A stretch of DNA of 64,000 nt from the human T2T-CHM13v2.0 reference genome, Homo sapiens: contig CP086569.2 in the NCBI GenBank assembly GCA_009914755.4, forward strand, positions 28,800,001 through 28,864,000, in the 5' to 3' direction. Made by a program: the position numbers and the translations under genes. The notes under the pieces are model-generated. The model worked only from the letters and a program-made list of their open reading frames with translations. It ran no database searches and was not told where the DNA came from. Shown in pieces: positions 365-43,032 of this stretch (within the stretch, counting starts at the first letter, position 1; each line of letters begins with the position of its first letter).

Positions 365-399
365 TTGCATTGCATTCCATTCCGTTTGATTCCAGTCCA

Positions 400-1405: not shown

Positions 1406-1418
1406 TTCGAGAACCTTC
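1406..1418. promoter_or_regulatory. Second perfect HSE-consensus TTCgaGAAccTTC, once per array-1 HOR (tttttttcgagaaccttcc). In array 2 it is degraded to TTGgaGAAccTTC or GAActTTC.
   Basis: Read directly at 1401-1420, with periodic recurrence at +2377. A 2-unit GAAatTTC also occurs at 1870-1877. Confidence 0.25.
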
Positions 1419-19377: not shown

Positions 19378-21754
19378 TTGCATTGCATTCCATTCCGTTT
19401 GATTCCAGTCCATTCAAGAAAGTTCCATTCCAGTCCATTGCTTTCGAGTCCATTCCATTCCACTCTAGTCTATTCCACTCCATTCCTTTCCATTCCATTC
19501 CATACTATTCCATTCCATTCCTTTGCATTCCGTTTCCAATCTATTCGAGTCCATTACATTCCAGTCCAATCCATTCGATTACATTCCTCTTGATTCCCTG
19601 CCAGTCGATTGCATTGCATACTAGACCATTCCAAAGGAGTCCATTCCATTCTATTTCAACACTTCCCATTCCACTCTGTTCGAGTCCATTCCATTCCAGT
19701 CCATTTAATTCAAGGGCATTCCATTCCATTCCATTCCATTTCATATTATTCTATTCCATTCAATTCCATTCCAGATGATTCCATTCCATTCTATACCATT
19801 GCTCTCTGTTCCATTCCATTCCATCTGTCTCCATTCCTTTCGTTTCGATTCCTTTCCATTCCATTCCATTACATTTGATCCTATTTTATTAAATTGCATT
19901 CTATTCGAGTGATTTCCATTCGAGTCCTTTCCATTCGATTCCATTCCATTCTATTCCATTCCTTTGGATTCCATTCCATTCCGTTCCGTTCATATCAATT
20001 CCTTGCCATTCCATTACATTCGATTTCTTGCCATTCGATTCCATTCCTTTTGACTCCATTTCATTCGATTCCATTCCATTCCATTAATTTCCATTCCATT
20101 CGAGACCTTTCCATTGCAGTCTTTTCCCTTCGAGTCCATTCCGTTCGATTCCCTTCCATTGGAGTCCGTACCAGTCTAGTCCATTCTATTCCAGTCCATT
20201 AGTTTCGACTCCATTGCATTCGAGTGCATTCCATTCCGTGGCTGTCCATTGCATTCCGTTTGATGCCATTCCATATGATTCCATTCAATTCGAGACCATT
20301 CTATTCCTTTCCATTCCTTGTGGTTCGATTCCATTTTACTCTAGTCCATTCCATTCCATTGAATTCCATTCGACTCTATTCCGTTCCATTCAATTCCATT
20401 CCATTCGATTCCATTTTTTTCGAGAACCTTCCATTACACTCCCTTCCATTCCAGTGCATTCCATTCCAGTCTCTTCAGTTCTATTCCATTCCATTCGTTT
20501 CGATTCCATTCCACTCCAGCCCATTCCATTCCATTCCATTCCTTTCTTTCCGTTTCATTAGATTCCATTGCATTCAATTCCATTCAAATCAATTCCGTGC
20601 TATTCAATTTGATTCCTTTCCATTTAATTCCATAGCATTAGATTCCATTCCGTTCGATTCCATTCCATTTGATGCCATTCCATTTGATGCCATTCCGTGA
20701 CATTCCATTCCATTCGAGTCCATTCCGTTCCAATTCATTCCATTCCGTTTCATGAAATTCGAGTCCTTTCCAGTACATTTCATTCCAATCCCATCCAATC
20801 CAATCTATTCCATTCAATTCCTTTCCCTTCCATTTGATTATATTCCATTGATTTGATTCCATTCAGTTTGATTCCATTCCGTGAAATTTCGTTCCATTCT
20901 ATTCCATTGCATTACTTTCCATTCAATTCCATTCCATTTCATTTCTGTCCATTCGCTTCCTTTCCTTTCGATTCAATTCCATTTGATTCCACTCCATTCT
21001 ATGCGATTTCATTGCAATCGATTCAATTCCATTCGATGACATTCCTTTCGTTTCCATTCCATTAGAGTCCATTCAATTTGAGCATTCGTGTCCATTCTAT
21101 TCGAGTCCATTCCATTACCGTCTATTCTATTCCCTTCCATTCCTGTTGATTCAATTTCATTCCCTTCCATTCGATTCCTTTCCATTCGATTCCATTCCTT
21201 TCCATTCCATTCCATTCGTTCCCATTCCATGTGATTTCATTCCATTCCAGTGCATTATATTCGAGTCCACTCCACTCCATTCTATTACATTCAATTCCTC
21301 ATGAGTCCGTTCCATAACACTCCCTGCATTTCGATTCCATTTCTTGCCAGTTTTCTTCCATTTTATTGCATTCCGTTCGATTCCATTCCATTCGATTGCA
21401 TTCCATTCGATTGCATTCCATTCGAATCCTTTCCATTCCTTTCTATTCCATTCCATTTCATTCGATTTGATTCCATTCTGTTCTATTCCATTCAATTCTT
21501 TTTCATTCCATTCGAATCCTTTCTATTGCAGTCCATTCCATTCGAGTCCATTCCAATCCCTTCCATCCATTCCATTACAGTCCATTCCAATAGATTCCAC
21601 TCCTTTGCCTTCCATTCGAATCCATTCCATTCTAGTCCATTCCATTTGAGTCAATTCCATTCCATTCCATTCTATTCCTTTCCAATCCATTCGATTCCAT
21701 TCGATTCAATTCCATTTAATTCTCTTTCATTCTATTTTATTCCATGCCATTTGA
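19378..21754. repeat. Array 1 HOR unit u9 (2377 bp, subtype B).
   Basis: B markers at 20604, 20638, 20853 and 21250. The 301-aa peptide is identical to the one at 4613. Confidence 0.8.
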
Positions 21755-24131
21755 TTGCATTGCATTCCATTCCGTTTGATTCCAGTCCATTCAAGAAAGT
21801 TCCATTCCAGTCCATTGCTTTCGAGTCCATTCCATTCCACTCTAGTCTATTCCACTCCATTCCTTTCCATTCCATTCCATACTATTCCATTCCATTCCTT
21901 TGCATTCCGTTTCCAATCTATTCGAGTCCATTACATTCCAGTCCAATCCATTCGATTACATTCCTCTTGATTCCCTGCCAGTCGATTGCATTGCATACTA
22001 GACCATTCCAAAGGAGTCCATTCCATTCTATTTCAACACTTTCCATTCCACTCTGTTCGAGTCCATTCCATTCCAGTCCATTTAATTCAAGGGCATTCCA
22101 TTCCATTCCCTTCCATTTTATATTATTCTATTCCATTCAATTCCATTCCAGATGATTCCATTCCATTCTATACCATTGCTCTCTGTTCCATTCCATTCCA
22201 TCTGTCTCCATTCCTTTCGTTTCGATTCCTTTCCATTCCATTCCATTACATTTGATCCTATTTTATTAAATTGCATTCTATTCGAGTGATTTCCATTCGA
22301 GTCCTTTCCATTCGATTCCATTCCATTCTATTCCATTCCTTTGGATTCCATTCCATTCCGTTCCGTTCACATCAATTCCTTGCGATTCCATTACATTCGA
22401 TTTCTTGCCATTCGATTCCATTCCTTTTGACTCCATTTCATTCGATTCCATTCCATTCCATTAATTTCCATTCCATTCGAGACCTTTCCATTGCAGTCTT
22501 TTCCCTTCGAGTCCATTCCGTTCGATTCCCTTCCATTGGAGTCCGTACCAGTCGAGTCCATTCTATTCCAGTCCATTAGTTTCGACTCCATTGCATTCGA
22601 GTGCATTCCATTCCGTGGCTGTCCATTCCATTCCGTTTGATGCCATTCCATACGATTCCATTCAATTCGAGACCATTCTATTCCTGTCCATTCCTTGTGG
22701 TTCGATTCCATTTTACTCTAGTCCATTCCATTCCATTGAATTCCATTCGACTCTATTCCGTTCCATTCAATTCCATTCCATTCGATTCCATTTTTTTCGA
22801 GAACCTTCCATTACACTCCCTTCCATTCCAGTGCATTCCATTCCAGTCTATTCAGTTCTATTCCATTCCATTCGTTTCGATTCCATTCCTCTCCAGCCCA
22901 TTCCATTCCATTCCATTCCTTTCTTTCCGTTTCATTAGATTCCATTGCATTCAATTCCATTCAATTCAATTCCGTGCTATTCAATTTGATTCCTTTCCAT
23001 TTAATTCCATAGCATTAGATTCCATTCCGTTCGATTCCATTCCATTTGATGCCATTCCATTTGATGTCATTCCGTGACATTCCATTCCATTCGAGTCCAT
23101 TCCGTTCCAATTCATTCCATTCCGTTTCATGAAATTCGAGTCCTCTCCAGTACATTTCATTCCAATCCCAACCAATCCAATCTATTCCATTCAATTCCTT
23201 TCCCTTCCATTTGATTATATTCCATTGATTTGATTCCATTCAGTTTGATTCCATTCCGTGAAATTTCGTTCCATTCTATTCCATTGCATTACTTTCCATT
23301 CAATTCCATTCCATTTCATTTCTGTCCATTCGCTTCCTTTCCTTTCGATTCAATTCCATTTGATTCCACTCCATTCTATGCGATTTCATTGCAATCAATT
23401 CAATTCCATTCGATGACATTCCTTTCGTTTCCATTCCATTCGAGTCCATTCAATTTGAGCATTCGTGTCCATTCTATTCGAGTCCATTCCATTACCGTCT
23501 ATTCTATTCCCTTCCATTCCTGTTGATTCAATTTCATTCCCTTCCATTCAATTCCTTTCCATTCGATTCCATTCCTTTCCATTCCATTCCATTCGTTCCC
23601 ATTCCATGTGATTTCATTCCATTCCAGTGCATTATATTTGAGTCCACTCCACTCCATTCTATTACATTCAATTCCTCATGAGTCCGTTCCATAACACTCC
23701 CTGCATTTCGATTCCATTTCTTGCCAGTTTTCTTCCATTTTATTGCATTCCGTTCGATTCCATTCCATTCGATTGCATTCCATTCGATTGCATTCCATTC
23801 GAATCCTTTCCATTCCTTTCTATTCCATTCCATTTCATTCGATTTGATTCCATTCTGTTCTATTCCATTCAATTCTTTTTCATTCCATTCGAATCCTTTC
23901 TATTGCAGTCCATTCCATTCGAGTCCATTCCAATCCCTTCCATCCATTCCATTACACTCCATTCCAATAGATTCCACTCCTTTGCCTTCCATTCGAATCC
24001 ATTCCATTCTAGTCCATTCCATTTGAGTCAATTCCATTCCATTCCATTCTATTCCTTTCCAATCCATTCGATTCCATTCGATTCAATTCCATTTAATTCT
24101 CTTTCATTCTATTTTATTCCATGCCATTTGA
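21755..24131. repeat. Array 1 HOR unit u10 (2377 bp, subtype C).
   Basis: MVGIG (22981) and MYWRG (23015) variants exactly 11,883 bp after u5. The same private variants as u5 appear at ~23398 and ~23636. Confidence 0.8.
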
Positions 24132-26512
24132 TTGCATTGCATTCCATTCCGTTTGATTCCAGTCCATTCAAGAAAGTTCCATTCCAGTCCATTGCTTTCG
24201 AGTCCATTCCATTCCACTGTAGTCTATTCCACTCCATTCCTTTCCATTCCATTCCATACTATTCCATTCCATTCCTTTGCATTCCGTTTCCAATCTATTC
24301 GAGTCCATTACATTCCAGTCCAATCCATTCGATTACATTCCTCTTGATTCCCTGCCAGTCGATTGCATTGCATACTAGACCATTCCAAAGGAGTCCATTC
24401 CATTCTATTTCAACACTTTCCATTCCACTCTGTTCGAGTCCATTCCATTCCAGTCCATTTAATTCAAGGGCATTCCATTCCATTCCATTCCATTTCATAT
24501 TATTCTATTCCATTCAATTCCATTCCAGATGATTCCGTTCCATTCTATACCATTGCTCTCTGTTCCATTCCATTCCATCTGTCTCCATTCCTTTCGTTTC
24601 GATTCCTTTCCATTCCATTCCATTACATTTGATCCTATTTTATTAAATTGCATTCTATTCGAGTGATTTCCATTCGAGTCCTTTCCATTCGATTCCATTC
24701 CATTCTATTCCATTCCTTTGGATTCCATTCCATTCCGTTCCGTTCACATCAATTCCTTGCGATTCCATTACATTCGATTTCTTGCCATTCGATTCCATTC
24801 CTTTTGACTCCATTTCATTCGATTCCATTCCATTCCATTAATTTCCATTCCATTCGAGACCTTTCCATTGCAGTCATTTCCCTTCGAGTCCATTCCGTTC
24901 GATTCCCTTCCATTGGAGTCCGTACCAGTCGAGTCCATTCTATTCCAGTCCATTAGTTTCGACTCCATTGCATTCGAGTGCATTCCATTCCGTGGCTGTC
25001 CATTCCATTCCGTTTGATGCCATTCCATACGATTCCATTCAATTCGAGACCATTCTATTCCTGTCCATTCCTTGTGGTTCGATTCCATTTTACTCTAGTC
25101 CATTCCATTCCATTCCATTGAATTCCATTGGACTCTATTCCGTTCCATTCAATTCCATTCCATTCGACTCCATTTTTTTCGAGAACCTTCCATTACACTC
25201 CCTTCCATTCCAGTGCATTCCATTCCAGTCTCTTCAGTTCTATTCCATTCCATTCGTTTCGATTCCATTCCACTCCAGCCCATTCCATTCCATTCCATTC
25301 CTTTCTTTCCGTTTCATTAGATTCCATTGCATTCAATTCCATTCAATTCAATTCCGTGCTATTCAATTTGATTCCTTTCCATTTAATTCCATAGCATTAG
25401 ATTCCATTCCGTTTGATTCCATTCCATTTGATGCCATTCCATTTGATGCCATTCCGTGACATTCCATTCCATTCGAGTCCATTCCATCCAATTCATTCCA
25501 TTCCGTTTCATGAAATTCGAGTCCTTTCCAGTACATTTCATTCCAATCCCATCCAGTCCAATCTATTCCATTCAATTCCTTTCCCTTCCATTTGATTATA
25601 TTCCATTGATTTGATTCCATTCAGTTTGATTCCATTCCGTGAAATTTCGTTCCATTCTATTCCATTGCATTACTTTCCATTCAATTCCATTCCATTTCAT
25701 TTCAGTCCATTCGCTTCCTTTCCTTTCGATTCAATTCCATTTGATTCCACTCCATTCTATGCGATTTCATTCCAATCGATTCAATTCCATTCAATGACAT
25801 TCCTTTCCTTTCCATTCCATTCGAGTCCATTCAATTTGAGCATTCGTGTCCATTCTATTCGAGTCCATTCCATTACCGTCTATTCTATTCCCTTCCATTC
25901 CTGTTGATTCAATTTCATTCCCTTCCATTCAATTCCTTTCCATTCGATTCCATTCCTTTCCATTCCATTCCATTCGTTCCCATTCCATGTGATTTCATTC
26001 CATTCCAGTCCATTATATTCGAGTCCACTCCACTCCATTCTATTACATTCAATTCCTCATGAGTCCGTTCCATAACACTCCATGCATTTCGATTCCATTT
26101 CTTGCCAGTTTTCTTCCATTTTATTCCATTCCGTTCGATTCCATTCCATTCGATTGCATTCCATTCGATTGCATACCATTCGAATCCTTTCCATTCCTTT
26201 CTATTCCATTCCATTTCATTCGATTTGATTCCATTGTGTTCTATTCCATTCAATTCTTTTTCATTCCATTCGAATCGTTTCTATTGCAGTCCATTCCATT
26301 CGAGTCCATTCCAATCCCTTCCATCCATTCCATTACAGTCCATTCCAATAGATTCCACTCCTTTGCCTTCCATTCGAATCCATTCCATTCTAGTCCATTC
26401 CATTTGAGTCAATTCCATTCCATTCCATTCTATTCCTTTCCAATCCATTCGATTCCATTCGATTCAATTCCATTTGATTCTCTTTCATTCTATTTTATTC
26501 CATGCCATTTGA
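24132..26512. repeat. Array 1 HOR unit u11 (2381 bp, subtype A2, with one extra pentamer).
   Basis: 85-aa peptide at 25363 and 88-aa peptide at 25128, each 11,888 bp after its u6 counterpart. An extra 'cattc' near 25101-25116 gives the 2381-bp length. Confidence 0.8.
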
Positions 26513-28889
26513 TTGCATTGCATTCCATTCCGTTTGATTCCAGTCCATTCAAGAAAGTTCCATTCCAGTCCATTGCTTTCGAGTCCATTCCATTCCACTC
26601 TAGTCTATTCCACTCCATTCCTTTCCATTCCATTCCATACTATTCCATTCCATTCCTTTGCATTCCGTTTCCAATCTATTCGAGTCCATTACATTCCAGT
26701 CCAATCCATTCGATTACATTCCTCTTGATTCCCTGCCAGTCGATTGCATTGCATACTAGACCATTCCAAAGGAGTCCATTCCATTCTATTTCAACACTTT
26801 CCATTCCACTCTGTTCGAGTCCATTCCATTCCAGTCCATTTAATTCAAGGGCATTCCATTCCATTCCATTCCATTTCATATTATTCTATTCCATTCAATT
26901 CCATTCCAGATGATTCCATTCCATTCTATACCATTGCTCTCTGTTCCATTCCATTCCATCTGTCTCCATTCCTTTCGTTTCGATTCCTTTCCATTCCATT
27001 CCATTACATTTGATCCTATTTTATTAAATTGCATTCTATTCGAGTGATTTCCATTCGAGTCCTTTCCATTCGATTCCATTCCATTCTATTCCATTCCTTT
27101 GGATTCCATTCCATTCCGTTCCGTTCATATCAATTCCTTGCCATTCCATTACATTCGATTTCTTGCCATTCGATTCCATTCCTTTTGACTCCATTTCATT
27201 CGATTCCATTCCATTCCATTAATTTCCATTCCATTCGAGACCTTTCCATTGCAGTCTTTTCCCTTCGAGTCCATTCCGTTCGATTCCCTTCCATTGGAGT
27301 CCGTACCAGTCTAGTCCATTCTATTCCAGTCCATTAGTTTCGACTCCATTGCGTTCGAGTGCATTCCATTCCGTGGCTGTCCATTGCATTCCGTTTGATG
27401 CCATTCCATATGATTCCATTCAATTCGAGACCATTCTATTCCTGTCCATTCCTTGTGGTTCGATTCCATTTTACTCTAGTCCATTCCATTCCATTGAATT
27501 CCATTCGACTCTATTCCGTTCCATTCAATTCCATTCCATTCGATTCCATTTTTTTCGAGAACCTTCCATTACACTCCCTTCCATTCCAGTGCATTCCATT
27601 CCAGTCTCTTCAGTTCTATTCCATTCCATTCGTTTCGATTCCATTCCACTCCAGCCCATTCCATTCCATTCCATTCCTTTCTTTCCGTTTCATTAGATTC
27701 CATTGCATTCAATTCCATTCAAATCAATTCCGTGCTATTCAATTTGATTCCTTTCCATTTAATTCCATAGCATTAGATTCCATTCCGTTCGATTCCATTC
27801 CATTTGATGCCATTCCATTTGATGCCATTCCGTGACATTCCATTCCATTCGAGTCCATTCCGTTCCAATTCATTCCATTCCGTTTCATGAAATTCGAGTC
27901 CTTTCCAGTACATTTCATTCCAATCCCATCCAATCCAATCTATTCCATTCAATTCCTTTCCCTTCCATTTGATTATATTCCATTGATTTGATTCCATTCA
28001 GTTTGATTCCATTCCGTGAAATTTCGTTCCATTCTATTCCATTGCATTACTTTCCATTCAATTCCATTCCATTTCATTTCTGTCCATTCGCTTCCTTTCC
28101 TTTCGATTCAATTCCATTTGATTCCACTCCATTCTATGCGATTTCATTGCAATCGATTCAATTCCATTCGATGACATTCCTTTCGTTTCCATTCCATTAG
28201 AGTCCATTCAATTTGAGCATTCGTGTCCATTCTATTCGAGTCCATTCCATTACCGTCTATTCTATTCCCTTCCATTCCTGTTGATTCAATTTCATTCCCT
28301 TCCATTCGATTCCTTTCCATTCGATTCCATTCCTTTCCATTCCATTCCATTCGTTCCCATTCCATGTGATTTCATTCCATTCCAGTGCATTATATTCGAG
28401 TCCACTCCACTCCATTCTATTACATTCAATTCCTCATGAGTCCGTTCCATAACACTCCCTGCATTTCGATTCCATTTCTTGCCAGTTTTCTTCCATTTTA
28501 TTGCATTCCGTTCGATTCCATTCCATTCGATTGCATTCCATTCGATTGCATTCCATTCGAATCCTTTCCATTCCTTTCTATTCCATTCCATTTCATTCGA
28601 TTTGATTCCATTCTGTTCTATTCCATTCAATTCTTTTTCATTCCATTCGAATCCTTTCTATTGCAGTCCATTCCATTCGAGTCCATTCCAATCCCTTCCA
28701 TCCATTCCATTACACTCCATTCCAATAGATTCCACTCCTTTGCCTTCCATTCGAATCCATTCCATTCTAGTCCATTCCATTTGAGTCAATTCCATTCCAT
28801 TCCATTCTATTCCTTTCCAATCCATTCGATTCCATTCGATTCAATTCCATTTAATTCTCTTTCATTCTATTTTATTCCATGCCATTTGA
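26513..28889. repeat. Array 1 HOR unit u12 (2377 bp, subtype B).
   Basis: B markers at 27739, 27773, 27988 and 28385. Confidence 0.8.
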
Positions 28890-29670
28890 TTGCATTGCAT
28901 TCCATTCCGTTTGATTCCAGTCCATTCAAGAAAGTTCCATTCCAGTCCATTGCTTTCGAGTCCATTCCATTCCACTCTAGTCTATTCCACTCCATTCCTT
29001 TCCATTCCATTCCATACTATTCCATTCCATTCCTTTGCATTCCGTTTCCAATCTATTCGAGTCCATTACATTCCAGTCCAATCCATTCGATTACATTCCT
29101 CTTGATTCCCTGCCAGTCGATTGCATTGCATACTAGACCATTCCAAAGGAGTCCATTCCATTCTATTTCAACACTTTCCATTCCACTCTGTTCGAGTCCA
29201 TTCCATTCCAGTCCATTTAATTCAAGGGCATTCCATTCCATTCCATTCCATTTCATATTATTCTATTCCATTCAATTCCATTCCAGATGATTCCATTCCA
29301 TTCTATACCATTGCTCTCTGTTCCATTCCATTCCATCTGTCTCCATTCCTTTCGTTTCGATTCCTTTCCATTCCATTCCATTACATTTGATCCTATTTTA
29401 TTAAATTGCATTCTATTCGAGTGATTTCCATTCGAGTCCTTTCCATTCGATTCCATTCCATTCTATTCCATTCCTTTGGATTCCATTCCATTCCGTTCCG
29501 TTCACATCAATTCCTTGCGATTCCATTACATTCGATTTCTTGCCATTCGATTCCATTCCTTTTGACTCCATTTCATTCGATTCCATTCCATTCCATTAAT
29601 TTCCATTCCATTCGAGACCTTTCCATTGCAGTCTTTTCCCTTCGAGTCCATTCCGTTCGATTCCCTTCCA

Positions 29671-29685
29671 TTCGATTCCATTCCA
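29671..29685. repeat. 15-bp (three-pentamer) tandem duplication 'ttcgattccattcca', diagnostic of all array-2 units.
   Basis: Array 1 reads cgattcccttccattggagtcc. Array 2 reads cgattcccttcca|ttcgattccattcca|ttggagtcc. This gives the 107-aa versus 102-aa peptide difference (extra IRFHS) in every 3.5-kb unit. Confidence 0.8.
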
Positions 29686-30194
29686 TTGGAGTCCGTACCA
29701 GTCGAGTCCATTCTATTCCAGTCCATTAGTTTCGACTCCATTGCATTCGAGTGCATTCCATTCCGTGGCTGTCCATTCCATTCCGTTTGATGCCATTCCA
29801 TACGATTCCATTCAATTCGAGACCATTCTATTCCTGTCCATTCCTTGTGGTTCGATTCCATTTCACTATAGTCCATTCCATTCCATTGAATTCCATACGA
29901 CTCTATTCCGTTCCATTCAATTCCATTCCTTTCGATTCCATTTTTTTGGAGAACCTTCCATTACACTCCCTTCCATTCCAGTGCATTCCATTCCAGTCTC
30001 TTCAGTTCGATTCCATTCCATTCGTTTCAATTCCATTCCATTCCAGCCCATTCCATTCCATTCCATTCCTTTCCTTTCCGTTTCATTAGATTCCATTGCA
30101 TTCGATTCCATTCAATTCAATTCCGTGCTATTCAATTTGATTCATTTCCATTTAATTCCATTGCATTAGATTCCATTCCGTTCGATTCCATTCC

Positions 30195-31324
30195 TTTCGA
30201 ATCCATTCCATTGGAGTCCATTCACTTCCAGAACATTCCCTTCCAGTCGAATCCATTCGAGTAGATTCCATTAATGTTCATTACATTCTACTACATTCCA
30301 TTCCATTGCATTCCATTCCATTCCGTTCGATGCCATTCGATTCCACTCCATGCCAAATCATTGCATTCCTTTCCACTCCGTTCCTATCAATTCAATTCCA
30401 TTCGATTTAGTTCGATTCTATTCACTTCCATTCCATCCGATTCCATTCCATTGGAGTCAATTCCTTTCGACACCCAGCCTTTCCAGTCAATGATTTTGGA
30501 TTCCATTTTTTTGCATTCCATTACATTCTATGACATTCGATTCCGTTTCATTGCATTCCATTCCATACATTTTTATTCCATTCGAGACCGTAGCATTCTG
30601 CTTTATTCCAGGCCTGTCCATTGCACTACATTCCCTTCCATTCCAATGAATTCCATTCCATTCCAATCCATTCCTTTCCTTTCGCTTGTATTCCATTCTA
30701 TTCTCTTCTACTGCATACAATTTCACTCCATTCGTTCCCATTCCATTCAATTCCATTCCATTCAATTCCATTCCATTTGTTTCCATTCTCTTCGATTCCA
30801 TTTCTTTATATTCCATGCCATTCGATTCCATTCTATTGGATTGCATTACATTCGTATTCACTCCATTCCAGACCATTCCATTTGACTCCATTCCTTTCGA
30901 GCCCTTTCAACTTAAGTCCATTCCTTTCCAGTCCATTTCACTCCAGTCCATTACTGTCCATTCCATACCATTCCATCCCATTCCATTCCATTCCATTGCA
31001 TTCCATTCCATTCCGTTCCATTGCACTGTACTCCATTCCATTACATTCTACTCCATTTGAGTCGATTTTATTGCATTAGATTCTATTCCATTGGATTGCT
31101 TTCCATTCGATTACATTCCATTCATGTACATTCCATTCCAGTCAATTACATTCGAGTTCATTACATTACATTCCAGTATATTCCATTGTATTCGGTCCCA
31201 TTCCTTTCAATTCCATTTCATTAGACTCCATTATATTCGATTCCATTCCACTCGAATACATTCCATTAGAGGACATTCCATTCCAATGCATTCCATTCCA
31301 TTTCATAGCATTCCATCGCATTCG
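30195..31324. repeat. ~1.13-kb array-2-specific HOR segment (first copy), bounded by 14-bp direct repeats 'ttcgattccattcc' at ~30181-30194 and ~31311-31324. It is absent from the 2.38-kb units and recurs once per 3.53-kb unit.
   Basis: Alignment by eye: array 1 at 1641-1690 equals the left flank (ccgttcgattccattcc) joined directly to the right flank (atttgatgccattcc...). In array 2 the two flanks are separated by diverged pentamer sequence containing cgacacccagcctttccagtcaatgattttgg, gagaccgtagcattc and ccaggcctgtcc. Confidence 0.75.
30611..30614. other. HaeIII (GGCC) site within 'ccaggcctgtcc', which appears to occur only once per 3.53-kb unit and is not seen in array 1.
   Basis: Recurs at ~34144, ~37671, etc. 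It is mutated in v7 (ccaagcctgtcc ~51821) and v8 (ccattcctgtcc ~55350). No GGCC noticed in the 2.38-kb units on visual scan. Confidence 0.5.
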
Positions 31325-32423
31325 ATTCCATTCCATTTGATGCCATTCCATGACATTCCATTCCATTCGAGTCCATTCCGTTCCAATTCATTCCATTCCG
31401 TTTCATGAAATTCGAGTCCTTTCCAGTACATTTCATTCCAATCACATCCAATCCAATCTACTCCATTCAATTCCTTTCCATTCCATTTGATTATTTTCCA
31501 TTGATTTGATTCCATTCAGTTTGATTCCATTCCGTGAAATTTCGTTCCATTCTATTCCATTGCATTACTTTCCATTCAATTCCATTCCATTTCATTTCAG
31601 TCCATTCGCTTACTTTCCTTTCGATTCAATTCCATTTGATTCCACTCCATTCTATGTGATTTCATTCCAATCGATTCAATTCCATTCGATGACATTCCTT
31701 TCGTTTCCATTCCATTCGAGTCCATTTAATTTGAGCATTCGTGTCCATTCTATTCGAGTCCATTCCATTACCGTCTATTCTACTCCCTTCCATTCCTGTT
31801 GATTCAATTTCATTCCCTTCCATTCGATTCCTTTCCATTCGATTCCATTCCTTTCCATTCCATTCCATTCGTTCCCATTCCATGTGATTTCATTCCATTC
31901 CAGTCCATTATATTCGAGTCCACTCCACTCCATTCTATTACATTCAATTCCTTTTGAGTCCGTTCCATAACACTCCATTCATTTCGAATCCATTTCTTGC
32001 CAGTTTTCTTCCATTTTATTCCATTCCGTTCGATTCCATTCCATTCGATTGCATTCCATTCGATTGCATTCCATTCGAATCCTTTCCATTCCATTTCATT
32101 CCATTCCTTTCTATTCCATTCCATTTCATTCGATTTGATTCCATTCTGTTCTATTCCATTCAATTCTTTTTCATTCCATTCGAATCCTTTCTATTGCAGT
32201 CCATTCCATTCGAGTCCATTCCAATCCCTTCCATTCCATTCCATTACAGTCCATTCCAATAGATTCCATTCCTTTGCCTTCCATTCGAATCCATTCCATT
32301 CTAGTCCATTCCATTTGAGTCAATTCCATTCCATTCCATTCTATTCCTTTCCAATCCATTCGATTCCATTCGATTCAATTCCATTTGATTCTCTTTCATT
32401 CTATTTTATTCCATGCCATTTCA

Positions 32424-35400
32424 TTGCATTGCATTGCATTCCGTTTGATTCCAGTCCATTCAAGAAAGTTCCATTCCAGTCCATTGCTTACGAGTCCATT
32501 CCATTCCACTCTAGTCTATTCCACTCCATTCCTTTCCATTCCATTCCATACTATTCCATTCCATTCCTTTGCTTTCCGTTTCTAATCTATTCGAGTCCAT
32601 TGCATTCCAGTCCAATCCATTCGATTACATGCCTTTTGATTCCCTGCCAGTCGATTGCATTGCATACTAGACCATTCCAAACGAGTCCATTCCATTCTAT
32701 TTCAACAATTTCCATTCCACTCTGTTCGAGTCCATTCCATTCCAGTCCATTTAATTCAAGGGCATTCCATTCCATTCCATTCCATTTCATATTATTCCAT
32801 TCCATTCAATTCCATTCCAGATGATTCCATTCCATTCTATACCATTGCTCTCTGTTCCATTCCATTCCATCTGTCTCCATTCCTTTCGTTTCGATTCCTT
32901 TCCATTCCATTCCATTACATTTGATCCTATTTTATTAAATTGCATTCTATTCGAGTGATTTCCATTCGAGTCCTTTCCATTCGATTCCATTCCATTCTAT
33001 TCCATTCCTTTGGATTCCATTCCATTCCGTTCCGTTCACATCCATTCCTTGTGATTCCATTACATTCGATTTCTTGCCATTCGATTCCATTCCTTTTGAC
33101 TCCATTTCATTCGATTCCATTCCATTCCATTAATTTCCATTCCATTCGAGACCTTTACATTGCAGTCTTTTCCCTTCGAGTCCATTCCGTTCGATTCCCT
33201 TCCATTCGATTCCATTCCATTGGAGTCCGTACCAGTCGAGTCCATTCTATTCCAGTCCATTAGTGTCGACTCCATTGCATTCGAGTGCATTCCATTCCGT
33301 GGCTGTCCATTCCATTCCGTTTGATGCCATTCCATACGATTCCATTCAATTCGAGACCATTCTATTCCTGTCCATTCCTTGTGGTTCGATTCCATTTCAC
33401 TCTAGTCCATTCCATTCCATTGAATTCCATACGACTCTATTCCGTTCCATTCAATTCCATTCCTTTCGATTCCATTTTTTTGGAGAACTTTCCATTACAC
33501 TCCCTTCCATTCCAGTGCATTCCATTCCAGTCTCTTCAGTTCGATTCCATTCCATTCGTTTCGATTCCATTCCATTCCAGCCCATTCCATTCAATTCCAT
33601 TCCTTTCCTTTCCGTTTCATTAGATTCCATTGCATTCGATTCCATTCAATTCAATTCCGTGCTATTCAATTTGATTCATTTCCATTTAATTCCATTGCAT
33701 TAGATTCCATTCCGTTCGATTCCATTCCTTTCGAATCCATTCCATTGGAGTCCATTCACTTCCAGAACATTCCATTCCAGTCGAATCCATTCGAGTAGAT
33801 TCCATTAATGTTCATTACATTCTACTACATTCCATTCCATTGCATTCCATTCCATTCCGTTCGATGCCATTCGATTCCACTCCATGCCAAATCATTGCAT
33901 TCCTTTCCACTCCGTTCCTATCAATTCAATTCCATTCGATTTAGTTCGATTCTATTCACTTCCATTCCATCCGATTCCATTCCATTGGAGTCAATTCTTT
34001 CGACACCCAGCCTTTCCAGTCAATGATTTTGGATTCCATTTTTTTGCATTCCATTACATTCTATGACATTCGATTCCGTTTCATTGCATTCCATTCCATA
34101 CATTTTTATTCCATTCGAGACCGTAGCATTCCACTTTATTCCAGGCCTGTCCATTGCACTACATTCCCTTCCATTCCAATGAATTCCATTCCATTCCAAT
34201 CCATTCCTTTCCTTTCGCTTGTTTTCCATTCTATTCTCTTCTACTGCATACAATTTCACTCCATTCGTTCCCATTCCATTCAATTCCATTCCATTCAATT
34301 CCATTCCATTTGTTTCCTTTCTCTTCGATTCCATTTCTTTATATTCCATGCCATTCGATTCCATTCTATTGCATTGCATTACATTCGTATTCACTCCATT
34401 CCAGACCATTCCATTTGACTCCATTCCTTTCGAGCCCTTTCAACTTAAGTCCATTCCTTTCCAGTCCATTTCACTCCAGTCCATTACTGTCCATTCCATA
34501 CCATTCCATCCCATTCCATTCCATTCCATTCCATTCCATTGCATTCCATTCCATTCCGTTCCATTGCACTGTACTCCATTCCATTACATTCTACTCCATT
34601 TGAGTCGATTTTATTGCATTAGATTCTATTCCATTGGATTGCTTTCCATTCGATTACATTCCATTCATGTACATTCCATTCCAGTCAATTACATTCGAGT
34701 TCATTACATTACATTCCAGTATATTCCATTGTATTCGGACCCATTCCTTTCAATTCCATTTCATTAGACTCCATTATATTCGATTCCATTCCACTCGAAT
34801 ACATTCCATTAGAGGACATTCCATTCCAATGCATTCCATTCCATTTCATAGCATTCCATCGCATTCGATTCCATTCCATTTGATGCCATTCCATGACATT
34901 CCATTCCATTCGAGTCCATTCCGTTCCAATTCATTCCATTCCGTTTCATGAAATTCGAGTCCTTTCCAGTACATTTCATTCCAATCACATCCAATCCAAT
35001 CTACTCCATTCAATTCCTTTCCATTCCATTTGATTATTTTCCATTGATTTGATTCCATTCAGTTTGATTCCATTCCGTGAAATTTCGTTCCATTCTATTC
35101 CATTGCATTACTTTCCATTCAATTCCATTCCATTTCATTTCAGTCCATTCGCTTCCTTTCCTTTCGATTCAATTCCATTTGATTCCACTCCATTCTATGC
35201 GATTTCATTCCAATCGATTCAATTCCATTCGATGACATTCCTTTCGTTTCGATTCCATTCGATTCCATTCAATTTGAGCATTCGTGTCCATTCTATTCGA
35301 GTCCATTCCATTACCGTCTATTCTATTCCCTTCCATTCCTGTTGATTCAATTTCATTCCCTTCCATTCGATTCCTTTCCATTCGATTCCATTCCTTTCCA

Positions 35401-35956
35401 TTCCATTCCATTCGTTCCCATTCCATGTGATTTCATTCCATTCCAGTCCATTATATTCGAGTCCACTCCACTCCATTCTATTACATTCAATTCCTTTTGA
35501 GTCCGTTCCATAACACTCCATTCATTTCGATTCCATTTCTTGCCAGTTTTCTTCCATTTTATTCCATTCCGTTCGATTCCATTCCTTTCGATTGCATTCC
35601 ATTCGATTGCATTCCATTCGAATCCTTTCCATTCCATTTCATTCCATTCCTTTCTATTCCATTCCATTTCATTCGATTTGATTCCATTCTGTTCTATTCC
35701 ATTCAATTCTTTTTCATTCCATTCGAATCCTTTCTATTGCAGTCCATTCCATTCAAGTCCATTCCAATCCCTTCCATTCCATTCCATTACAGTCCATTCC
35801 AATAGATTCCATTCCTTTGCCTTCCATTCGAATCCATTCCATTCTTGTCCATTCCATTTGAGTCAATTCCATTCTATTCCTTTCCAATCCATTCGATTCC
35901 ATTTGATTCAATTCCATTTGATTCTCTTTCATTCTATTTTATTCCATGCCACTTGA
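32424..35956. repeat. Array 2 HOR unit v2 (3533 bp, insert subtype Y).
   Basis: Insert at 33808 carries a 1-bp deletion (gtcaattctttcgacaccc) that truncates the peptide to 72 aa. The 134-aa peptide is the KRKETNG/ENKRKE variant. Confidence 0.75.
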
Positions 35957-38900
35957 TTGCATTGCATTCCATTCCGTTTGATTCCAGTCCATTCAAGAAA
36001 GTTCCATTCCAGTCCATTGCTTTCCAGTCCATTCCATTCCACTCTAGTCTATTCCACTCCATTCCTTTCCATTCCATTCCATAATATTCCATTCCATTCC
36101 TTTGCTTTCCGTTTCCAATCTATTCGAGTCCATTGCATTCCAGTCCAATCCATTCGATTACATTCTTTTGATTCCCTGCCAGTCGATTGCATTGCATACT
36201 AGACCATTCCAAACGAGTCCATTCCATTCTATTTCAACACTTTCCATTCCACTCTGTTCGAGTCCATTCCATTCCAGTCCATTTAATTCAAGGGCATTCC
36301 ATTCCATTCCATTCCATTTCCTGTTATTCCATTCCATTCAATTCCATTCCAGATGATTCCATTCCATTCTATACCTTTGCTCTCTGTTCCATTCCATTCC
36401 ATCTGTCTCCATTCCTTTCGTTTCGATTCCTTTCCATTCCATTCCATTACATTTGATCCTATTTTATTAAATTGCATTCTATTCGAGTGCTTTCCATTCG
36501 AGTCCTTTCCATTCGATTCCATTCCATTCTATTCCATTCTTTTGGATTCCATTCCGTTCCGTTCCGTTCACATCAATTCCTTGCGATTCCATTACATTCG
36601 ATTTCTTGCCATTCGATTCCATTCCTTTTGACTCCATTTCATTCGATTCCATTCCATTCCATTAATTTCCATTCCATTCGAGACCTTTCCATTGCAGTCT
36701 TTTCCCTTCGAGTCCATTCCGTTCGATTCCCTTCCATTCGATTCCATTCCATTGGAGTCCGTACCAGTCGAGTCCATTCTGTTCCAGTCCATTAGTTTCG
36801 ACTCCATTGCATTCGAGTGCATTCCATTCCGTGGCTGTCCATTCCATTTCGTTTGATGCCATTCCATAAGATTCCATTAAATTCGAGACCATTCTATTCC
36901 TGTCCATTCCTTGTGGTTCGATTCCATTTCACTCTAGTCCATTCCATTCCATTGAATTCCATTCGACTCTATTCCGTTCCATTCAATTCCATTCCTTTCG
37001 ATTCCCTTTTTTTCGAGAACCTTCCATTACACTCCCTTCCATTCCAGTGCATTCCATTCCAGTCTCTTCAGTTCGATTCCATTCCATTCGTTTCGATTCC
37101 ATTCCATTCCAGCCCATTCCATTCCATTCCATTCCTTTCCTTTCCGTTTCATTAGATTCCATTGCATTCGATTCCATTCAATTCATTTCCGTTCTATTCA
37201 ATTTGATTCATTTCCATTTAATTCCATTCCATTAGATTCCATTCCTTTCGAATCCATTCCATTGGAGTCCATTCACTTCCAGAACATTCCATTCCAGTCG
37301 AATCCATTCGAGTACATTCCATTAAAGTTCATTACATTCTAATACATTCCATTCCATTGCATTCCATTCCATTCCATTCGATGCCATTCGATTCCATTCC
37401 ATGCCAAATCATTGCATTCCTTTCCATTCCGTTCCTATCCATTCCATTCCATTCGATTTAGTTCGATGCTATTCACTTCCATTCCATTCGATTCCATTCC
37501 ATTGGAGTCAATTCCTTTCGACACCCAGCCTTTCCAGTCAATGATTTTGGATTCCATTTTTTTGCATTCCATTACATTCTATGACATTCGATTCCATTTC
37601 ATTGCATTCCGTTCCATACATTTTTATTCCATTCGAGACCGTAGCATTCCACTTTATTCCAGGCCTGTCCATTACACTACATTCCCTTCCATTCCAATGA
37701 ATTCCATTCCATTCCAATCCATTCCTTTCCTTTCGCTTGCATTCCATTCTATTCTCTTCTACTGCATACAATTTCACTCCATTCGTTCCCATTCCATTCA
37801 ATTCCATTCCATTCAATTCCATTCCATTTGTTTCCATTCTCTTCAATTCCATTTCTTTATATTCCATGCCATTCGATTCCATTCTATTGGATTGCATTAC
37901 ATTCGTGTTCATTCCATTCCAGACCATTCCATTTGACTCCATTCCTTTCGAGCCCTTTCAATTTGAGTCCATTCTTTTCCAGTCCATTTCTCTCCAGTCC
38001 ATTACTATCCATTCCATACCATTCCATCCCATTCCATTCCATTCCATTCAATTCCATTGCATTCCATTCCATTCCATTCCTTTGCACTGCACTCCATTCC
38101 ATTACATTCTACTCTCTTTGAGTCGATTTTATTGCTTTAGATTCTATTCCATTGGATTACTATCCATTCGATTACATTCCATTCATGTACATTCCATTCC
38201 AGTCAATTACATTCGTGTTCATTACATTACATTCCAGTATATTCCATTTTATTCGGTCCCATTCCTTTCAATTCCATTTCATTCGACTCCATCATATTCC
38301 ATTCCATTCCACTCGAATCCATTCCATTAGAGGACATTCCATTCCAATGCATTCCATTCCATTCCATAGCATTCCATTGCATTCGATTCCATTCCATTTG
38401 ATGCCATTCCATTTGATGCCATTCCATGACATTCCATTCCATTCGAGTCCATTCCATTCCAATTCATTCCATTCCGTTTCATGAAATGCGAGTCCTTTCC
38501 ATTCCATTTCATTCCAATCCCATCCAATCCAATCTACTCCATTCAATTCCTTTCCATTCCATTTGATTATATTCCATTGATTTGATTCCATTCAGTTTGA
38601 TTCCATTCCGTGAAATTTCGTTCCATTCTATTCCATTGCATTACTTTCCATTCAATTCCATTCCATTTCATTTCAGTCCATTTGCTTCCTTTCCTTTCGA
38701 TTCAATTCCATTTGATTCCACTCCATTCTATGCGATTTCATTCCAATCGATTCAATTCCATTCGTTGACATTCCTTTCGTTTCCATTCCATTCGAGTCCA
38801 TTCAATTTGAGCATTCGTGTCCATTCTATTCGAGTCCATTCCATTACCGTCTATTCTATTCCCTTGCATTCCTGTTGATTCAATTTCATTCCCTTCCATT

Positions 38901-39483
38901 CGATTCCTTTCCATTCGATTCCATTCCTTTCCATTCCATTCCATTCGTTCCCATTCCATGTGATTTCATTCCATTCCTGTCCATTATATTCGAGTCCACT
39001 CCACTCCATTCTATTACATTCAATTCCTTTTGAGTCCGTTCCATAACACTCCATTCATTTCGATTCCATTTCTTGCCAGTTTGCTTCCATTTTATTCCGT
39101 TCCGTTCGATTCCATTCCATTCCATTGCATTCCATTCGAATCCTTTCCATTCCATTTCATTCCATTCCTTTCTATTCCATTCCATTTCATTTGATTTGAT
39201 TCCATTCTGTTCTATTCCATTCAATTCTTTTTCATTCCATTCGAATCCTTTCTATTGCAGTCCATTCCATTCGAGTCCATTCCAATCCCTTCCATTCCAT
39301 TCCATTACAGTCCATTCCAATAGATTCCATTCCTTTGCATTCCATTCGAATCCATTCCATTCTAGTCCATTCCATTTGAGTCAATTCCATTCCATTCCAT
39401 TCTATTCCTTTCCAATCCATTCGATTCCATTCGATTCAATTCCATTTGATTCTCTTTCATTCATTTTATTCCATGCCATTTGA
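35957..39483. repeat. Array 2 HOR unit v3 (3527 bp, insert subtype Z).
   Basis: MHSFPFRSYPFHS insert variant at 37412. M-type 134-aa peptide at 37538. Head carries the MLSVS variant block (36102). Confidence 0.75.
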
Positions 39484-42400
39484 TTGCATTGCATTCCATT
39501 CCGTTTGATTCCAGTCCATTCAAGAAAGTTCCATTCCAGTCCATTGCTTTCCAGTCCATTCCATTCCACTCTAGTCTATTCCACTCCATTCCTTTCCATT
39601 CCATTCCATAATATTCCATTCCATTCCTTTGCTTTCCGTTTCCAATCTATTCGAGTCCATTGCATTCCAGTCCAATCCATTCGATTACATTCCTTTTGAT
39701 TCCCTGCCAGTCGATTGCATTGCATACTAGACCATTCCAAACGAGTCCATTCCATTCTATTTCAACACTTTCCATTCCACTCTGTTCGAGTCCATTCCAT
39801 TCCAGTCCATTTAATTCAAGGGCATTCCATTCCATTCCATTCCATTTCATATTATTCCATTCCATTCAATTCCATTCCAGATGATTCCATTCCATTCTAT
39901 ACCATTGCTCTCTGTTCCATTCCATTCCATCTGTCTCCATTCCTTTCGTTTCGATTCCTTTCCATTCCATTCCATTACATTTGATCCTATTTTATTAAAT
40001 TGCATTCTATTCGAGTGATTTCCATTCGAGTCCTTTCCATTCGATTCCATTCCATTCTATTCCATTCCTTTGGATTCCATTCCATTCCGTTCCGTTCACA
40101 TCCATTCCTTGTGATTCCATTACATTCGATTTCTTGCCATTCGATTCCATTCCTTTTGACTCCATTTCATTCGATTCCATTCCATTCCATTAATTTCCAT
40201 TCCATTCGTGACCTTTACATTGCAGTCTTTTCCCTTCGAGTCCATTCCGTTCGATTCCCTTCCATTCGATTCCATTCCATTGGAGTCCGTACCAGTCGAG
40301 TCCATTCTATTCCAGTCCATTAGTGTCGACTCCATTGCATTCGAGTGCATTCCATTCCGTGGCTGTCCATTCCATTCCGTTTGATGCCATTCCATACGAT
40401 TCCATTCAATTCGAGACCATTCTATTCCTGTCCATTCCGTGTGGTTCGATTCCATTTCACTATAGTCCATTCCATTCCATTGAATTCCATACGACTCTAT
40501 TCCGTTCCATTCAATTCCATTCCTTTCGATTCCATTTTTTTGGAGAACCTTCCATTACACTCCCTTCCATTCCAGTGCATTCCATTCCAGTCTCTTCAGT
40601 TCGATTCCATTCCATTCGTTTCTATTCCATTCCATTCCAGCCCATTCCATTCCATTCCATTCCTTTCCTTTCCGTTTCATTAGATTCCATTGCATTCGAT
40701 TCCATTCAATTCAATTCCGTGCTATTCAATTTGATTCATTTCCATTTAATTCCATTGCATTAGATTCCATTCCGTTCGATTCCATTCCTTTCGAATCCAT
40801 TCCATTGGAGTCCATTCACTTCCAGAACATTCCATTCCAGTCGAATCCATTCGAGTAGATTCCATTAATGTTCATTACATTCTACTACATTCCATTCCAT
40901 TGCATTCCATTCCATTCCGTTCGATGCCATTCGATTCCACTCCATGCCAAATCATTGCATTCCTTTCCACTCCGTTCCTATCAATTCAATTCCATTCGAT
41001 TTAGTTCGATTCTATTCACTTCCATTCCATCCGATTCCATTCCATTGGAGTCAATTCCTTTCGACACCCAGCCTTTCCAGTCAATGATTTTGGATTCCAT
41101 TTTTTTGCATTCCATTACATTCTATGACATTCGATTCCGTTTCATTGCATTCCATTCCATACATTTTTATTCCATTCGAGACCGTAGCATTCCACTTTAT
41201 TCCAGGCCTGTCCATTGCACTACATTCCCTTCCATTCCAATGAATTCCATTCCATTCCAATCCATTCCTTTCCTTTCGCTTGTATTCCATTCTATTCTCT
41301 TCTACTGCATACAATTTCACTCCATTCGTTCCCATTCCATTCAATTCCATTCCATTCAATTCCATTCCATTTGTTTCCATTCTCTTCAATTCCATTTCTT
41401 TATATTCCATGCCATTCGATTCCATTCTATTGGATTGCATTACATTCGTGTTCATTCCATTCCAGACCATTCCATTTGACTCCATTCCTTTCGAGCCCTT
41501 TCAATTTGAGTCCATTCTTTTCCAGTCCATTTCACTCCAGTCCATTACTATCCATTCCATACCATTCCATCCCATTCCATTCCATTCCATTCAATTCCAT
41601 TGCATTCCATTCCATTCCATTCCATTGCACTGCACTCCATTCCATTACATTCTACTCTCTTTGAGTCGATTTTATTGCTTTAGATTCTATTCCATTGGAT
41701 TACTATCCATTCGATTACATTCCATTCATGTACATTCCATTCCAGTCAATTACATTCGTGTTCATTACATTACATTCCAGTATATTCCATTTTATTCGGT
41801 CCCATTCCTTTCAATTCCATTTCATTCGACTCCATCATATTCCATTCCATTCCACTCGAATCCATTCCATTAGAGGACATTCCATTCCAATGCATTCCAT
41901 TCCATTCCATAGCATTCCATTGCATTCGATTCCATTCCATTTGATGCCATTCCATTTGATGCCATTCCATGACATTCCATTCCATTCGAGTCCATTCCGT
42001 TCCAATTCATTCCATTCCGTTTCATGAAATTCGAGTCCTTTCCAGTACATTTCATTCCAATCACATCCAATCCAATCTACTCCATTCAATTCCTTTCCAT
42101 TCCATTTGATTATTTTCCATTGATTTGATTCCATTCAGTTTGATTCCATTCCGTGAAATTTCGTTCCATTCTATTCCATTGCATTACTTTCCATTCAATT
42201 CCATTCCATTTCATTTCAGTCCATTCGCTTACTTTCCTTTCGATTCAATTCCATTTGATTCCACTCCATTCTATGTGATTTCATTCCAATCGATTCAATT
42301 CCATTCGATGACATTCCTTTCGTTTCCATTCCATTCGAGTCCATTTAATTTGAGCATTCGTGTCCATTCTATTCGAGTCCATTCCATTACCGTCTATTCT

Positions 42401-43032
42401 ACTCCCTTCCATTCCTGTTGATTCAATTTCATTCCCTTCCATTCGATTCCTTTCCATTCGATTCCATTCCTTTCCATTCCATTCCATTCGTTCCCATTCC
42501 ATGTGATTTCATTCCATTCCAGTCCATTATATTCGAGTCCACTCCACTCCATTCTATTACATTCAATTCCTTTTGAGTCCGTTCCATAACACTCCATTCA
42601 TTTCGAATCCATTTCTTGCCAGTTTTCTTCCATTTTATTCCATTCCGTTCGATTCCATTCCATTCCATTCGATTGCATTCCATTCGAATCCTTTCCATTC
42701 CATTTCATTCCATTCCTTTCTATTCCATTCCATTTCATTCGATTTGATTCCATTCTGTTCTATTCCATTCAATTCTTTTTCATTCCATTCGAATCCTTTC
42801 TATTGCAGTCCATTCCATTCGAGTCCATTCCAATCCCTTCCATTCCATTCCATTACAGTCCATTCCAATAGATTCCATTCCTTTGCCTTCCATTCGAATC
42901 CATTCCATTCTAGTCCATTCCATTTGAGTCAATTCTATTCCATTCCATTCTATTCCTTTCCAATCCATTCGATTCCATTCGATTCAATTCCATTTGATTC
43001 TCTTTCATTCTATTTTATTCCATGCCATTTGA
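39484..43032. repeat. Array 2 HOR unit v4 (3549 bp, insert subtype X', Z-like in its distal half).
   Basis: Peptide at 40868 is X-like at its start and Z-like (Q, V) at its end. M-type 134-aa peptide at 41081. Confidence 0.7.

What the first reader, a model, noticed from the sequence alone, without database searches (positions are those of the whole stretch)
29400..30250. Sharp, in-register junction between a 2.38-kb HOR array and a 3.53-kb HOR array
Up to ~29.5 kb, units carry array-1 diagnostic bases. From 29671 they carry array-2 diagnostics. The periodicity changes from 2377 to ~3534 without any loss of register or any non-satellite junction sequence. This looks like a recombination or unequal-exchange boundary between two subfamilies of the same HOR, and such boundaries are rarely resolved.
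Basis: seen in the sequence. Interest (0 to 1): 0.6.

Follow-up and report, generated by a model that had tools for sequence, protein, structure and literature searches.

The report
Boundary between two Y-chromosome DYZ1 variants
Inside human Y-chromosome satellite DNA (DYZ1), a block of shortened 2.38-kb repeat units joins cleanly onto normal-length 3.53-kb units within one hybrid unit; this is the expected footprint of unequal exchange between repeats, so it is real but ordinary.

Summary
The window is entirely (ATTCC)n-type HSat3. Positions 1-29,6xx hold at least 12 units of 2,377 bp and the rest holds about 3,534-bp units. Unit 28890-32423 is a hybrid. It carries array-1 states at every fixed difference up to 29264 (29518 with the best-matching parents). 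It carries array-2 states from the 15-bp indel at 29666 onward, at 23 substitutions and 3 indels. There is one switch, no inserted or lost base, and a 147-bp tract (29519-29665) identical in both parents.

Both arrays are DYZ1/HSat3A6 of human Yq12. The published HSat3A6 marker 24-mer occurs once per unit in both arrays. Array 2 has the single HaeIII site and the classic 154-bp DYZ1 PCR target. The 2.38-kb unit is a DYZ1 unit that lost 1,150 bp between two 14-bp direct repeats, plus two 15-bp segments, and gained about 18 substitutions. It was then amplified as a 5-unit super-repeat.

It cannot be separated from an old in-situ expansion edge. An assembly chimera cannot be excluded without reads. 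Unequal exchange and DYZ1 unit-length heterogeneity are already documented, so interest is low.

The parts
1..28889 (+). Array 1: DYZ1-derived 2,377-bp HOR (partial unit 1-364, then 12 full units starting at 365, 2742, 5118, 7495, 9872, 12249, 14625, 17002, 19378, 21755, 24132, 26513). Three unit subtypes are arranged c a c a b | c a c a b | c a, an 11,884-bp super-repeat. It has no HaeIII site and no 154-bp DYZ1 PCR target.
   Evidence: HSat3A6 marker 24-mer in 11 of the 12 full units
27773..27816 (+). Example of the array-1 deletion junction (44-mer TTAGATTCCATTCCGTTCGATTCCATTCCATTTGATGCCATTCC). It is present in all 12 array-1 units and absent from array 2. It marks the loss of 1,150 bp between two copies of the 14-bp direct repeat TTCGATTCCATTCC.
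28890..32423 (+). Hybrid unit (3,534 bp). The left 630-780 bp is array-1 subtype b. The remainder is array-2 subtype a and includes the 1,150-bp segment that array 1 lacks (about 30201-31325).
29519..29665 (+). Exchange interval: a 147-bp tract identical in the array-1 b-type parent and the array-2 a-type parent. The conservative interval, bounded only by fixed differences, is 29265-29665.
   Evidence: derived-state polarity
29666..29680 (+). First array-2 diagnostic: a 15-bp segment (TTCCATTCGATTCCA; placement ambiguous within about 29658-29680). It is present in array 2 and in most independent DYZ1 copies, and absent from all array-1 units.
32424..64000 (+). Array 2: DYZ1 (HSat3A6) units of about 3,534 bp, starting at 32424, 35957, 39484, 43033, 46567, 50100, 53634, 57167 (3,303 bp, with a 230-bp deletion) and 60470 (cut by the window end). 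Two subtypes (a, b) differ by 1.7%. Most units have one HaeIII site and the 154-bp primer pair target.

Best explanation
This is a stretch of human Yq12 DYZ1 (HSat3A6) satellite. A derived, shortened DYZ1 higher-order repeat of 2,377 bp abuts DYZ1 units of about 3,534 bp, close to the canonical length. The short unit arose from a DYZ1 unit by loss of 1,150 bp between two 14-bp direct repeats (TTCGATTCCATTCC), by slippage or intra-unit unequal exchange. It also lost two 15-bp segments and acquired about 18 substitutions. It was then amplified by unequal sister-chromatid or intrachromatid exchange into an array of at least 12 units, most recently in 5-unit (11.9-kb) blocks. The boundary at 29.5-29.7 kb is the product of one homologous exchange between a b-type short unit and an a-type long unit, resolved inside 147 bp of perfect identity. 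The HOR phase therefore runs through without gain or loss of a base. Shown: the identity of the satellite, the deletion relationship, the single switch, the identical tract and the super-repeats. Inferred: the order of events and the exchange mechanism. The junction has no function of its own; it is a historical scar of satellite turnover.
For: Satellite identity. The HSat3A6-specific 24-mer from Altemose 2014 Table 1 occurs once per unit in 21 of 22 units across both arrays, and the 12 other HSat2/3 subfamily markers have 0 hits. Two DYZ1 sexing primers, recalled from memory, match exactly in array 2 units and lie exactly 154 bp apart, for example 34130-34283. Array 2 has one HaeIII site per unit, as reported for DYZ1. 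Thirty-nine independent DYZ1 contaminant contigs were fetched; the closest align end to end with the array-2 consensus at 95-98%.

Deletion relationship. Shown; the junction 44-mer is in 12/12 short units and 0 long units.

Polarity. Independent DYZ1 copies carry the array-2 state at 18 of 29 diagnostic sites and usually carry both 15-bp segments, so array 1 is the derived form.

Single in-register switch. Shown.

Amplification in blocks. 365-12248 versus 12249-24131 is 99.59% identical over 11,885 bp.

Literature. Yq12 is described as evolving by unequal exchange and sister-chromatid exchange.
Against: No sequencing reads were available, so the join itself is not independently supported. The short-unit junction 44-mer was not found in any other public sequence I could search, so array 1 is so far seen only in this window. 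That search is weak, because those collections hold only incidental human contamination. Array 1 differs from the adjacent long units by 2.3%, more than the long-unit subtypes differ from each other (1.7%). It therefore did not arise recently from its present neighbours. This fits an exchange that joined diverged domains, but it also fits an old in-situ origin. The chromosomal position within Yq12 is unknown.
Confidence: 0.8

Rival explanations
1. In-situ birth edge. The deletion arose in one unit of this very DYZ1 array and was amplified where it sits. The junction is then the outer limit of the last homogenising exchange, not a join of two arrays that once lay apart.
For: A one-unit-offset unequal exchange automatically gives tandem short units with a 2.38-kb period and in-register edges (inference). 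The hybrid's left part keeps the local c-a-b subtype order seen twice upstream.
Against: The short units differ at 29 near-fixed sites (about 18 derived in array 1 and about 10 derived in the local long units) and 2.3% overall from the neighbouring long units. A recent local origin is therefore excluded, though an old one is not.
Confidence: 0.3
2. Assembly chimera or collapse. The assembler wrongly joined two real arrays through their shared sequence.
For: The region is a long, near-identical satellite and the join lies in a tract identical in both arrays. No read data could be checked.
Against: The shared perfect identity is only about 150 bp (29519-29672), far shorter than long reads or typical assembly overlaps (inference). 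There are no Ns, no identity drop and no phase shift. The 12 short units have an ordered subtype pattern and 18 derived fixed substitutions, which collapse cannot create.
Confidence: 0.07
3. Gene-conversion tract edge. A conversion event copied array-1 sequence into the first few hundred bases of a long unit (or the reverse) without crossing over.
For: Gene conversion is reported among Yq12 de novo events.
Against: The array type does not switch back. Everything to the left for 29 kb is type 1 and everything to the right for 34 kb is type 2. Conversion alone does not explain the change of period.
Confidence: 0.03

Closest known systems
DYZ1 / HSat3A6 (human Yq12, about 3.56-kb HOR of CATTC pentamers)
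   Same: Array 2 has the HSat3A6 marker 24-mer, the single HaeIII site, the 154-bp PCR target, a period of about 3.53 kb and 95-98% identity to the closest independent DYZ1 contigs. Array 1 shares the marker 24-mer and aligns in full to DYZ1.
   Different: Array 2 units are 3,533-3,549 bp rather than the modal 3,564-3,569 bp, and they carry about 10 local derived substitutions. Array 1 is 2,377 bp and lacks the HaeIII site and the PCR target.
The '2.7 kbp' repeat of the Yq11/Yq12 transition (Hallast et al. 2023 preprint)
   Same: It is also a shortened, DYZ1-related HOR next to DYZ1.
   Different: That unit is 2.7 kb, with 23% derived from DYZ18 at 86% identity. Array 1 is 2,377 bp and aligns to DYZ1 over its whole length, with no divergent quarter.
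DYZ2 / HSat1B (about 2.4-kb Yq12 repeat)
   Same: Only the unit length is similar (2.42 kb versus 2.38 kb), and both are Yq12 neighbours of DYZ1.
   Different: DYZ2 is an AT-rich simple repeat plus an Alu plus HSATI, with 24% GC. Array 1 is purely pentameric with 39% GC.
HOR structural-variant domains formed by unequal crossing-over in satellite arrays (Smith-type model, as described for alpha-satellite and Yq12)
   Same: A deletion-variant HOR is amplified into a homogeneous domain, with multi-unit super-repeats and an in-register hybrid unit at the domain edge.
   Different: Nothing differs in principle. Only this particular variant and its breakpoint are specific.

Membership tests
DYZ1 / HSat3A6 | Built from diverged CATTC/ATTCC pentamers | tested here: met
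   TRF consensus periods of 5n (10, 15, 20, 45) with TTCCA-type units across 1-63985
DYZ1 / HSat3A6 | Subfamily-specific 24-mer TCGTTTCGATTCCTTTCCATTCCA (Altemose 2014, Table 1) | tested here: met
   21 exact hits, one per unit in both arrays; 0 hits for the 12 other subfamily markers
DYZ1 / HSat3A6 | HOR of about 3.56 kb with one HaeIII site per unit | tested here: inconclusive
   Met by array 2 (3,533-3,549 bp; HaeIII spacing 3518-3549). Not met by array 1 (2,377 bp, no HaeIII site). Array 1 is a deletion derivative, not a canonical member.
DYZ1 / HSat3A6 | 154-bp male-specific PCR target (primer sequences recalled from memory; not found in the searchable literature) | tested here: met
   Both 23-mers match exactly and lie 154 bp apart in array 2 units, inside the 1,150 bp that array 1 lacks
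DYZ1 / HSat3A6 | Location on Yq12 | not testable with these tools
   No human genome reference was available. The location is inferred from the markers above.
2.7-kbp Yq11/Yq12 transition repeat | 2.7-kb unit with about 23% DYZ18-like sequence (86% identity) | tested here: not met
   The unit is 2,377 bp and aligns to the DYZ1-type unit over its full length
DYZ2 / HSat1B | AT-rich simple repeat plus Alu fragment plus HSATI | tested here: not met
   GC is a uniform 0.38-0.40 and the whole window is pentameric
Homologous unequal-exchange junction | Single parental switch, in register, within a tract of perfect identity | tested here: met
   One switch; 147-bp identical tract at 29519-29665; constant-offset collinearity with both parents
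Homologous unequal-exchange junction | Independent support for the join (spanning reads, or the same junction in related Y chromosomes) | not testable with these tools
   No reads or other Y assemblies were available. The junction-specific 44-mer of array 1 is absent from the contaminant collections.

The most novel reading that the evidence does not exclude
The 2.38-kb DYZ1 deletion HOR could be a distinct, previously unnamed Yq12 sub-array. Classical DYZ1 assays would miss it because it has no HaeIII site and no 154-bp PCR target. Its junction with standard DYZ1 could then record a single ancient large-scale unequal exchange that joined two independently homogenised DYZ1 domains. Such a junction would be usable as a stable structural marker for Y-haplogroup phylogeny of the heterochromatin.
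Probability: 0.25. Interest if true: 0.3.

Novelty: new member of a known kind. Interest (0 to 1): 0.2.

Why it matters
It gives a base-resolved example of how a satellite HOR variant is born and spreads. A deletion forms between short direct repeats. The shortened unit is amplified in blocks. It is then joined to the parental form by exchange within about 150 bp of identity. In practice, the 2.38-kb variant would be invisible to HaeIII-based or primer-based DYZ1 assays. In virtual HaeIII digests it would appear as one long uncut fragment of at least 30.6 kb (window start to the first site at 30611). The junction or the deletion 44-mer could serve as a marker in comparisons of Yq12 assemblies. 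It does not change current understanding of satellite evolution.

Tried and rejected
(1) I searched the literature for the two DYZ1 primer sequences to confirm my recollection. There were no hits, so the primers remain 'from memory'. The exact double match at 154 bp is self-consistent.

(2) I scanned metagenome and bacterial-genome contigs for the array-1 deletion junction. There were 0 hits. The positive control with the DYZ1 primer 23-mer found 39 contaminant loci, none with array-1 derived states. This does not say how common array 1 is in humans.

It is noisy because of private and subtype variants. I replaced it with array-fixed sites and best-matching parents.

(4) I considered DYZ2 (similar unit length) and the Hallast 2.7-kbp repeat. 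Both were rejected on composition and alignment.

(5) The first mafft --addfragments run timed out. I reran it with 6merpair.

(6) I looked in Hallast et al. and its supplement for an explicit 2.4-kb DYZ1 variant. It gives only a size range (1,165-3,608 bp) and HaeIII fragment heterogeneity.

Full report
**What is in the window.** The whole 64-kb window is one strand-uniform pentameric satellite. TRF reports periods of 10, 15, 20 and 45 with TTCCA-type consensus across 1-63985. GC is 0.38-0.40 with constant skew. Nearest-repeat distances of 24-mers give 2377/2376 in the first 29 kb and 3534/3533 (plus 3543, 3549, 3303) afterwards. A 60-bp anchor maps unit starts at 365, 2742, 5118, 7495, 9872, 12249, 14625, 17002, 19378, 21755, 24132, 26513 and 28890 (spacing 2376-2381). 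It then maps starts at 32424, 35957, 39484, 43033, 46567, 50100, 53634, 57167 and 60470 (spacing 3303-3549). So there are 12 full short units (array 1), one 3,534-bp unit at 28890-32423, and eight full long units plus one cut by the window end (array 2).

**How the two units relate.** The short unit aligns with the long unit at 95.5-96.5% per copy, except that about 1.1 kb of the long unit has no counterpart. In a 22-unit MAFFT alignment, array 1 lacks columns 1316-2465 (1,150 bp) and two 15-bp segments (columns 776-790 and 3224-3238). The large gap lies between two copies of the 14-bp direct repeat TTCGATTCCATTCC. The resulting junction 44-mer is present in 12/12 short units and in no long unit. 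The -2377 periodicity stops at about 29650, whereas the +3534 periodicity is already detectable from about 27750, as expected if the short unit is a subset of the long one.

**The junction.** Twenty-nine substitution columns separate the arrays (majority base in at least 9 of 12 array-1 units and at least 6 of 9 array-2 units). At these columns the 12 short units read all '1', apart from one site in unit 17002. The five a-type long units read all '2', and the other four long units read mainly '2', with array-1 states at 2-8 columns. The unit 28890-32423 reads 111111 followed by 23 '2'.
- The array-1 states are at 29039, 29068, 29101, 29148 and 29264, all fixed, and at 29518, which is polymorphic in array 2.
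- The first array-2 feature is the 15-bp segment at 29666-29680, followed by 29864, 29897 and so on, and by the whole 1,150-bp segment.
- At a constant offset the hybrid equals short unit 9872 from 28890 to 29672 with a single private mismatch.
- At a constant offset it equals long unit 43033 from 29519 onward, with only scattered private mismatches.

The two parental types are therefore identical over 29519-29665 (147 bp), and the switch lies there. No base is gained or lost relative to either parent. Using only fixed differences the interval is 29265-29665.

With the best-matching parents (9872 and 43033), 12/13 informative sites on the left are type 1 and 42/44 on the right are type 2. It is noisier, with 46 of 58 sites fitting one breakpoint placed at 29518/29519. 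The cause is that 26513 is a different short-unit subtype and 32424 has private variants. This is not mosaicism.

**What satellite this is.** Altemose et al. 2014 list TCGTTTCGATTCCTTTCCATTCCA as the HSat3A6 (= DYZ1, chromosome Y) marker 24-mer. It occurs once per unit in 21 of 22 units across both arrays. The markers of the 12 other HSat2/3 subfamilies have no hit. Two DYZ1 sexing primers that I recalled from memory (I could not find them in the searchable library) match exactly in array 2 units and lie exactly 154 bp apart, for example 34130-34283. They sit inside the 1,150 bp that array 1 lacks. GGCC (HaeIII) occurs once per long unit and never in array 1. One HaeIII cut per unit is the classical DYZ1 property.

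Scanning microbial genome and metagenome contigs with the primer 23-mer recovered 39 human-contaminant loci. Many are collapsed contigs of about 3.6 kb. The closest of them align end to end with the array-2 consensus at 95-98% identity. Array 2 is therefore DYZ1, somewhat shorter (3,534 versus the modal 3,564-3,569 bp) and 2-3% from the bulk sequence.

**Polarity.** At the 29 diagnostic sites, the independent DYZ1 copies carry the array-2 state at 18 sites, the array-1 state at 10 and neither state at one. They usually contain both 15-bp segments. Array 1 is thus a derived lineage, with three deletions and about 18 substitutions. The adjacent long units (subtype a) carry about 10 derived changes of their own. 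The hybrid's left part carries the array-1-derived states at 29068, 29101 and 29264. Its right part carries subtype-a-derived states from 29897. On shared columns, mean distances are 0.8% within array 1, 2.3% between array 1 and array 2, and 1.7% between long-unit subtypes a and b. Array 1 forms its own clade.

**Internal structure of the arrays.** Short units fall into three subtypes arranged c a c a b | c a c a b | c a, followed by the hybrid, whose left part is subtype b. Consecutive 5-unit blocks are 99.59% identical over 11,885 bp. Array 2 shows a 6-unit (21.2-kb) echo. Unit 32424 versus unit 53634 is 99.72% identical. The hybrid's long-type part is closest to units 43033 and 50100. These patterns are the usual signature of multi-unit unequal exchange.

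**Interpretation.** The most economical history has three steps.
1. A DYZ1 unit lost 1,150 bp between 14-bp direct repeats.
2. The shortened unit was amplified and homogenised by unequal sister-chromatid or intrachromatid exchange, lately in 11.9-kb blocks.
3. Its right-hand limit is a single homologous exchange with a normal-length DYZ1 unit, resolved within 147 bp of identity.

Published work on complete Y chromosomes attributes Yq12 dynamics to exactly these mechanisms. It also reports DYZ1 unit lengths from 1,165 to 3,608 bp (95% above 3 kb) and virtual HaeIII fragments up to more than 200 kb. I found no explicit description of a 2.38-kb DYZ1 sub-HOR. It is not the 2.7-kbp transition repeat, which is one quarter DYZ18-like. 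It is not DYZ2, which is AT-rich with an Alu.

**What remains open.**
- The data cannot decide whether the junction joined two once-separate DYZ1 domains or is the edge of an old in-situ expansion. The 2.3% divergence excludes only a recent local origin.
- An assembly chimera cannot be formally excluded without reads. The shared identity is only about 150 bp, there is no irregularity at the join, and the short array's ordered subtypes and derived substitutions cannot be produced by collapse.
- The array-1 junction 44-mer was not found elsewhere. The collections searched contain only incidental human DNA.

**Verdict.** The phenomenon is a textbook product of satellite unequal exchange in a region already known to evolve that way. 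It is a new, precisely characterised instance (a DYZ1 deletion HOR and its breakpoint), not a new kind of feature.

Noticed in passing
window 365-28889: The 2.38-kb array has a higher level of order. Unit subtypes run c a c a b | c a c a b | c a (b-hybrid). Consecutive 11,884-bp blocks are 99.59% identical, and the third block skips one 'c a' pair.
   Followed up: partly
window 28890-64000: The long-unit array has a 6-unit (about 21.2-kb) echo; for example unit 32424 versus unit 53634 is 99.72% identical. It also has two interleaved subtypes, a (32424, 43033, 46567, 50100, 53634) and b (35957, 57167, 60470), which are 1.7% apart. Subtype b shares several states with array 1 and with bulk DYZ1.
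   Followed up: partly
window 57167-60469: This DYZ1 unit is only 3,303 bp because of a 230-bp internal deletion (alignment columns 1862-2091).
   Followed up: partly
window 51807-51829 and 55340-55362: Two consecutive long units have lost the HaeIII/StuI site by point changes (CCAGGCC to CCAAGCC and CCATTCC). This would give a 10.6-kb HaeIII fragment.
   Followed up: no
window, EcoRI sites (e.g. 33422 and 34181): Long units have two EcoRI sites (fragments of about 760 and 2,774 bp), whereas short units have one (a 2,377-bp ladder). The second site lies in the 1,150-bp segment missing from array 1.
   Followed up: no
window 24132-26512: This short unit is 2,381 bp. The MSA shows a 5-bp insertion (TCCAT) relative to the other short units near alignment column 982.
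   Followed up: no
L001-L006 (e.g. BMRF01000076.1 Actinomadura cremea JCM 3308; BNBB01000077.1; BMTN01000077.1; NZ_JBFAJD010000109.1 Streptomyces sp.) and L007-L039: Contigs deposited as bacterial genomes or metagenomes are human DYZ1. Several are collapsed single units of about 3.6 kb, and the six from bacterial genome records are 95.5-97.7% identical to the array-2 consensus. They are human Y-satellite contamination of microbial assemblies, as the T2T-Y paper warned.
   Followed up: partly
L016, L037, L036, L012, L028 (metagenome contigs): Some contigs that contain the exact DYZ1 primer 23-mer are only 74-86% identical to the array-2 consensus. They may be divergent DYZ1-related HSat3 variants or mis-assembled short-read contigs.
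   Followed up: no
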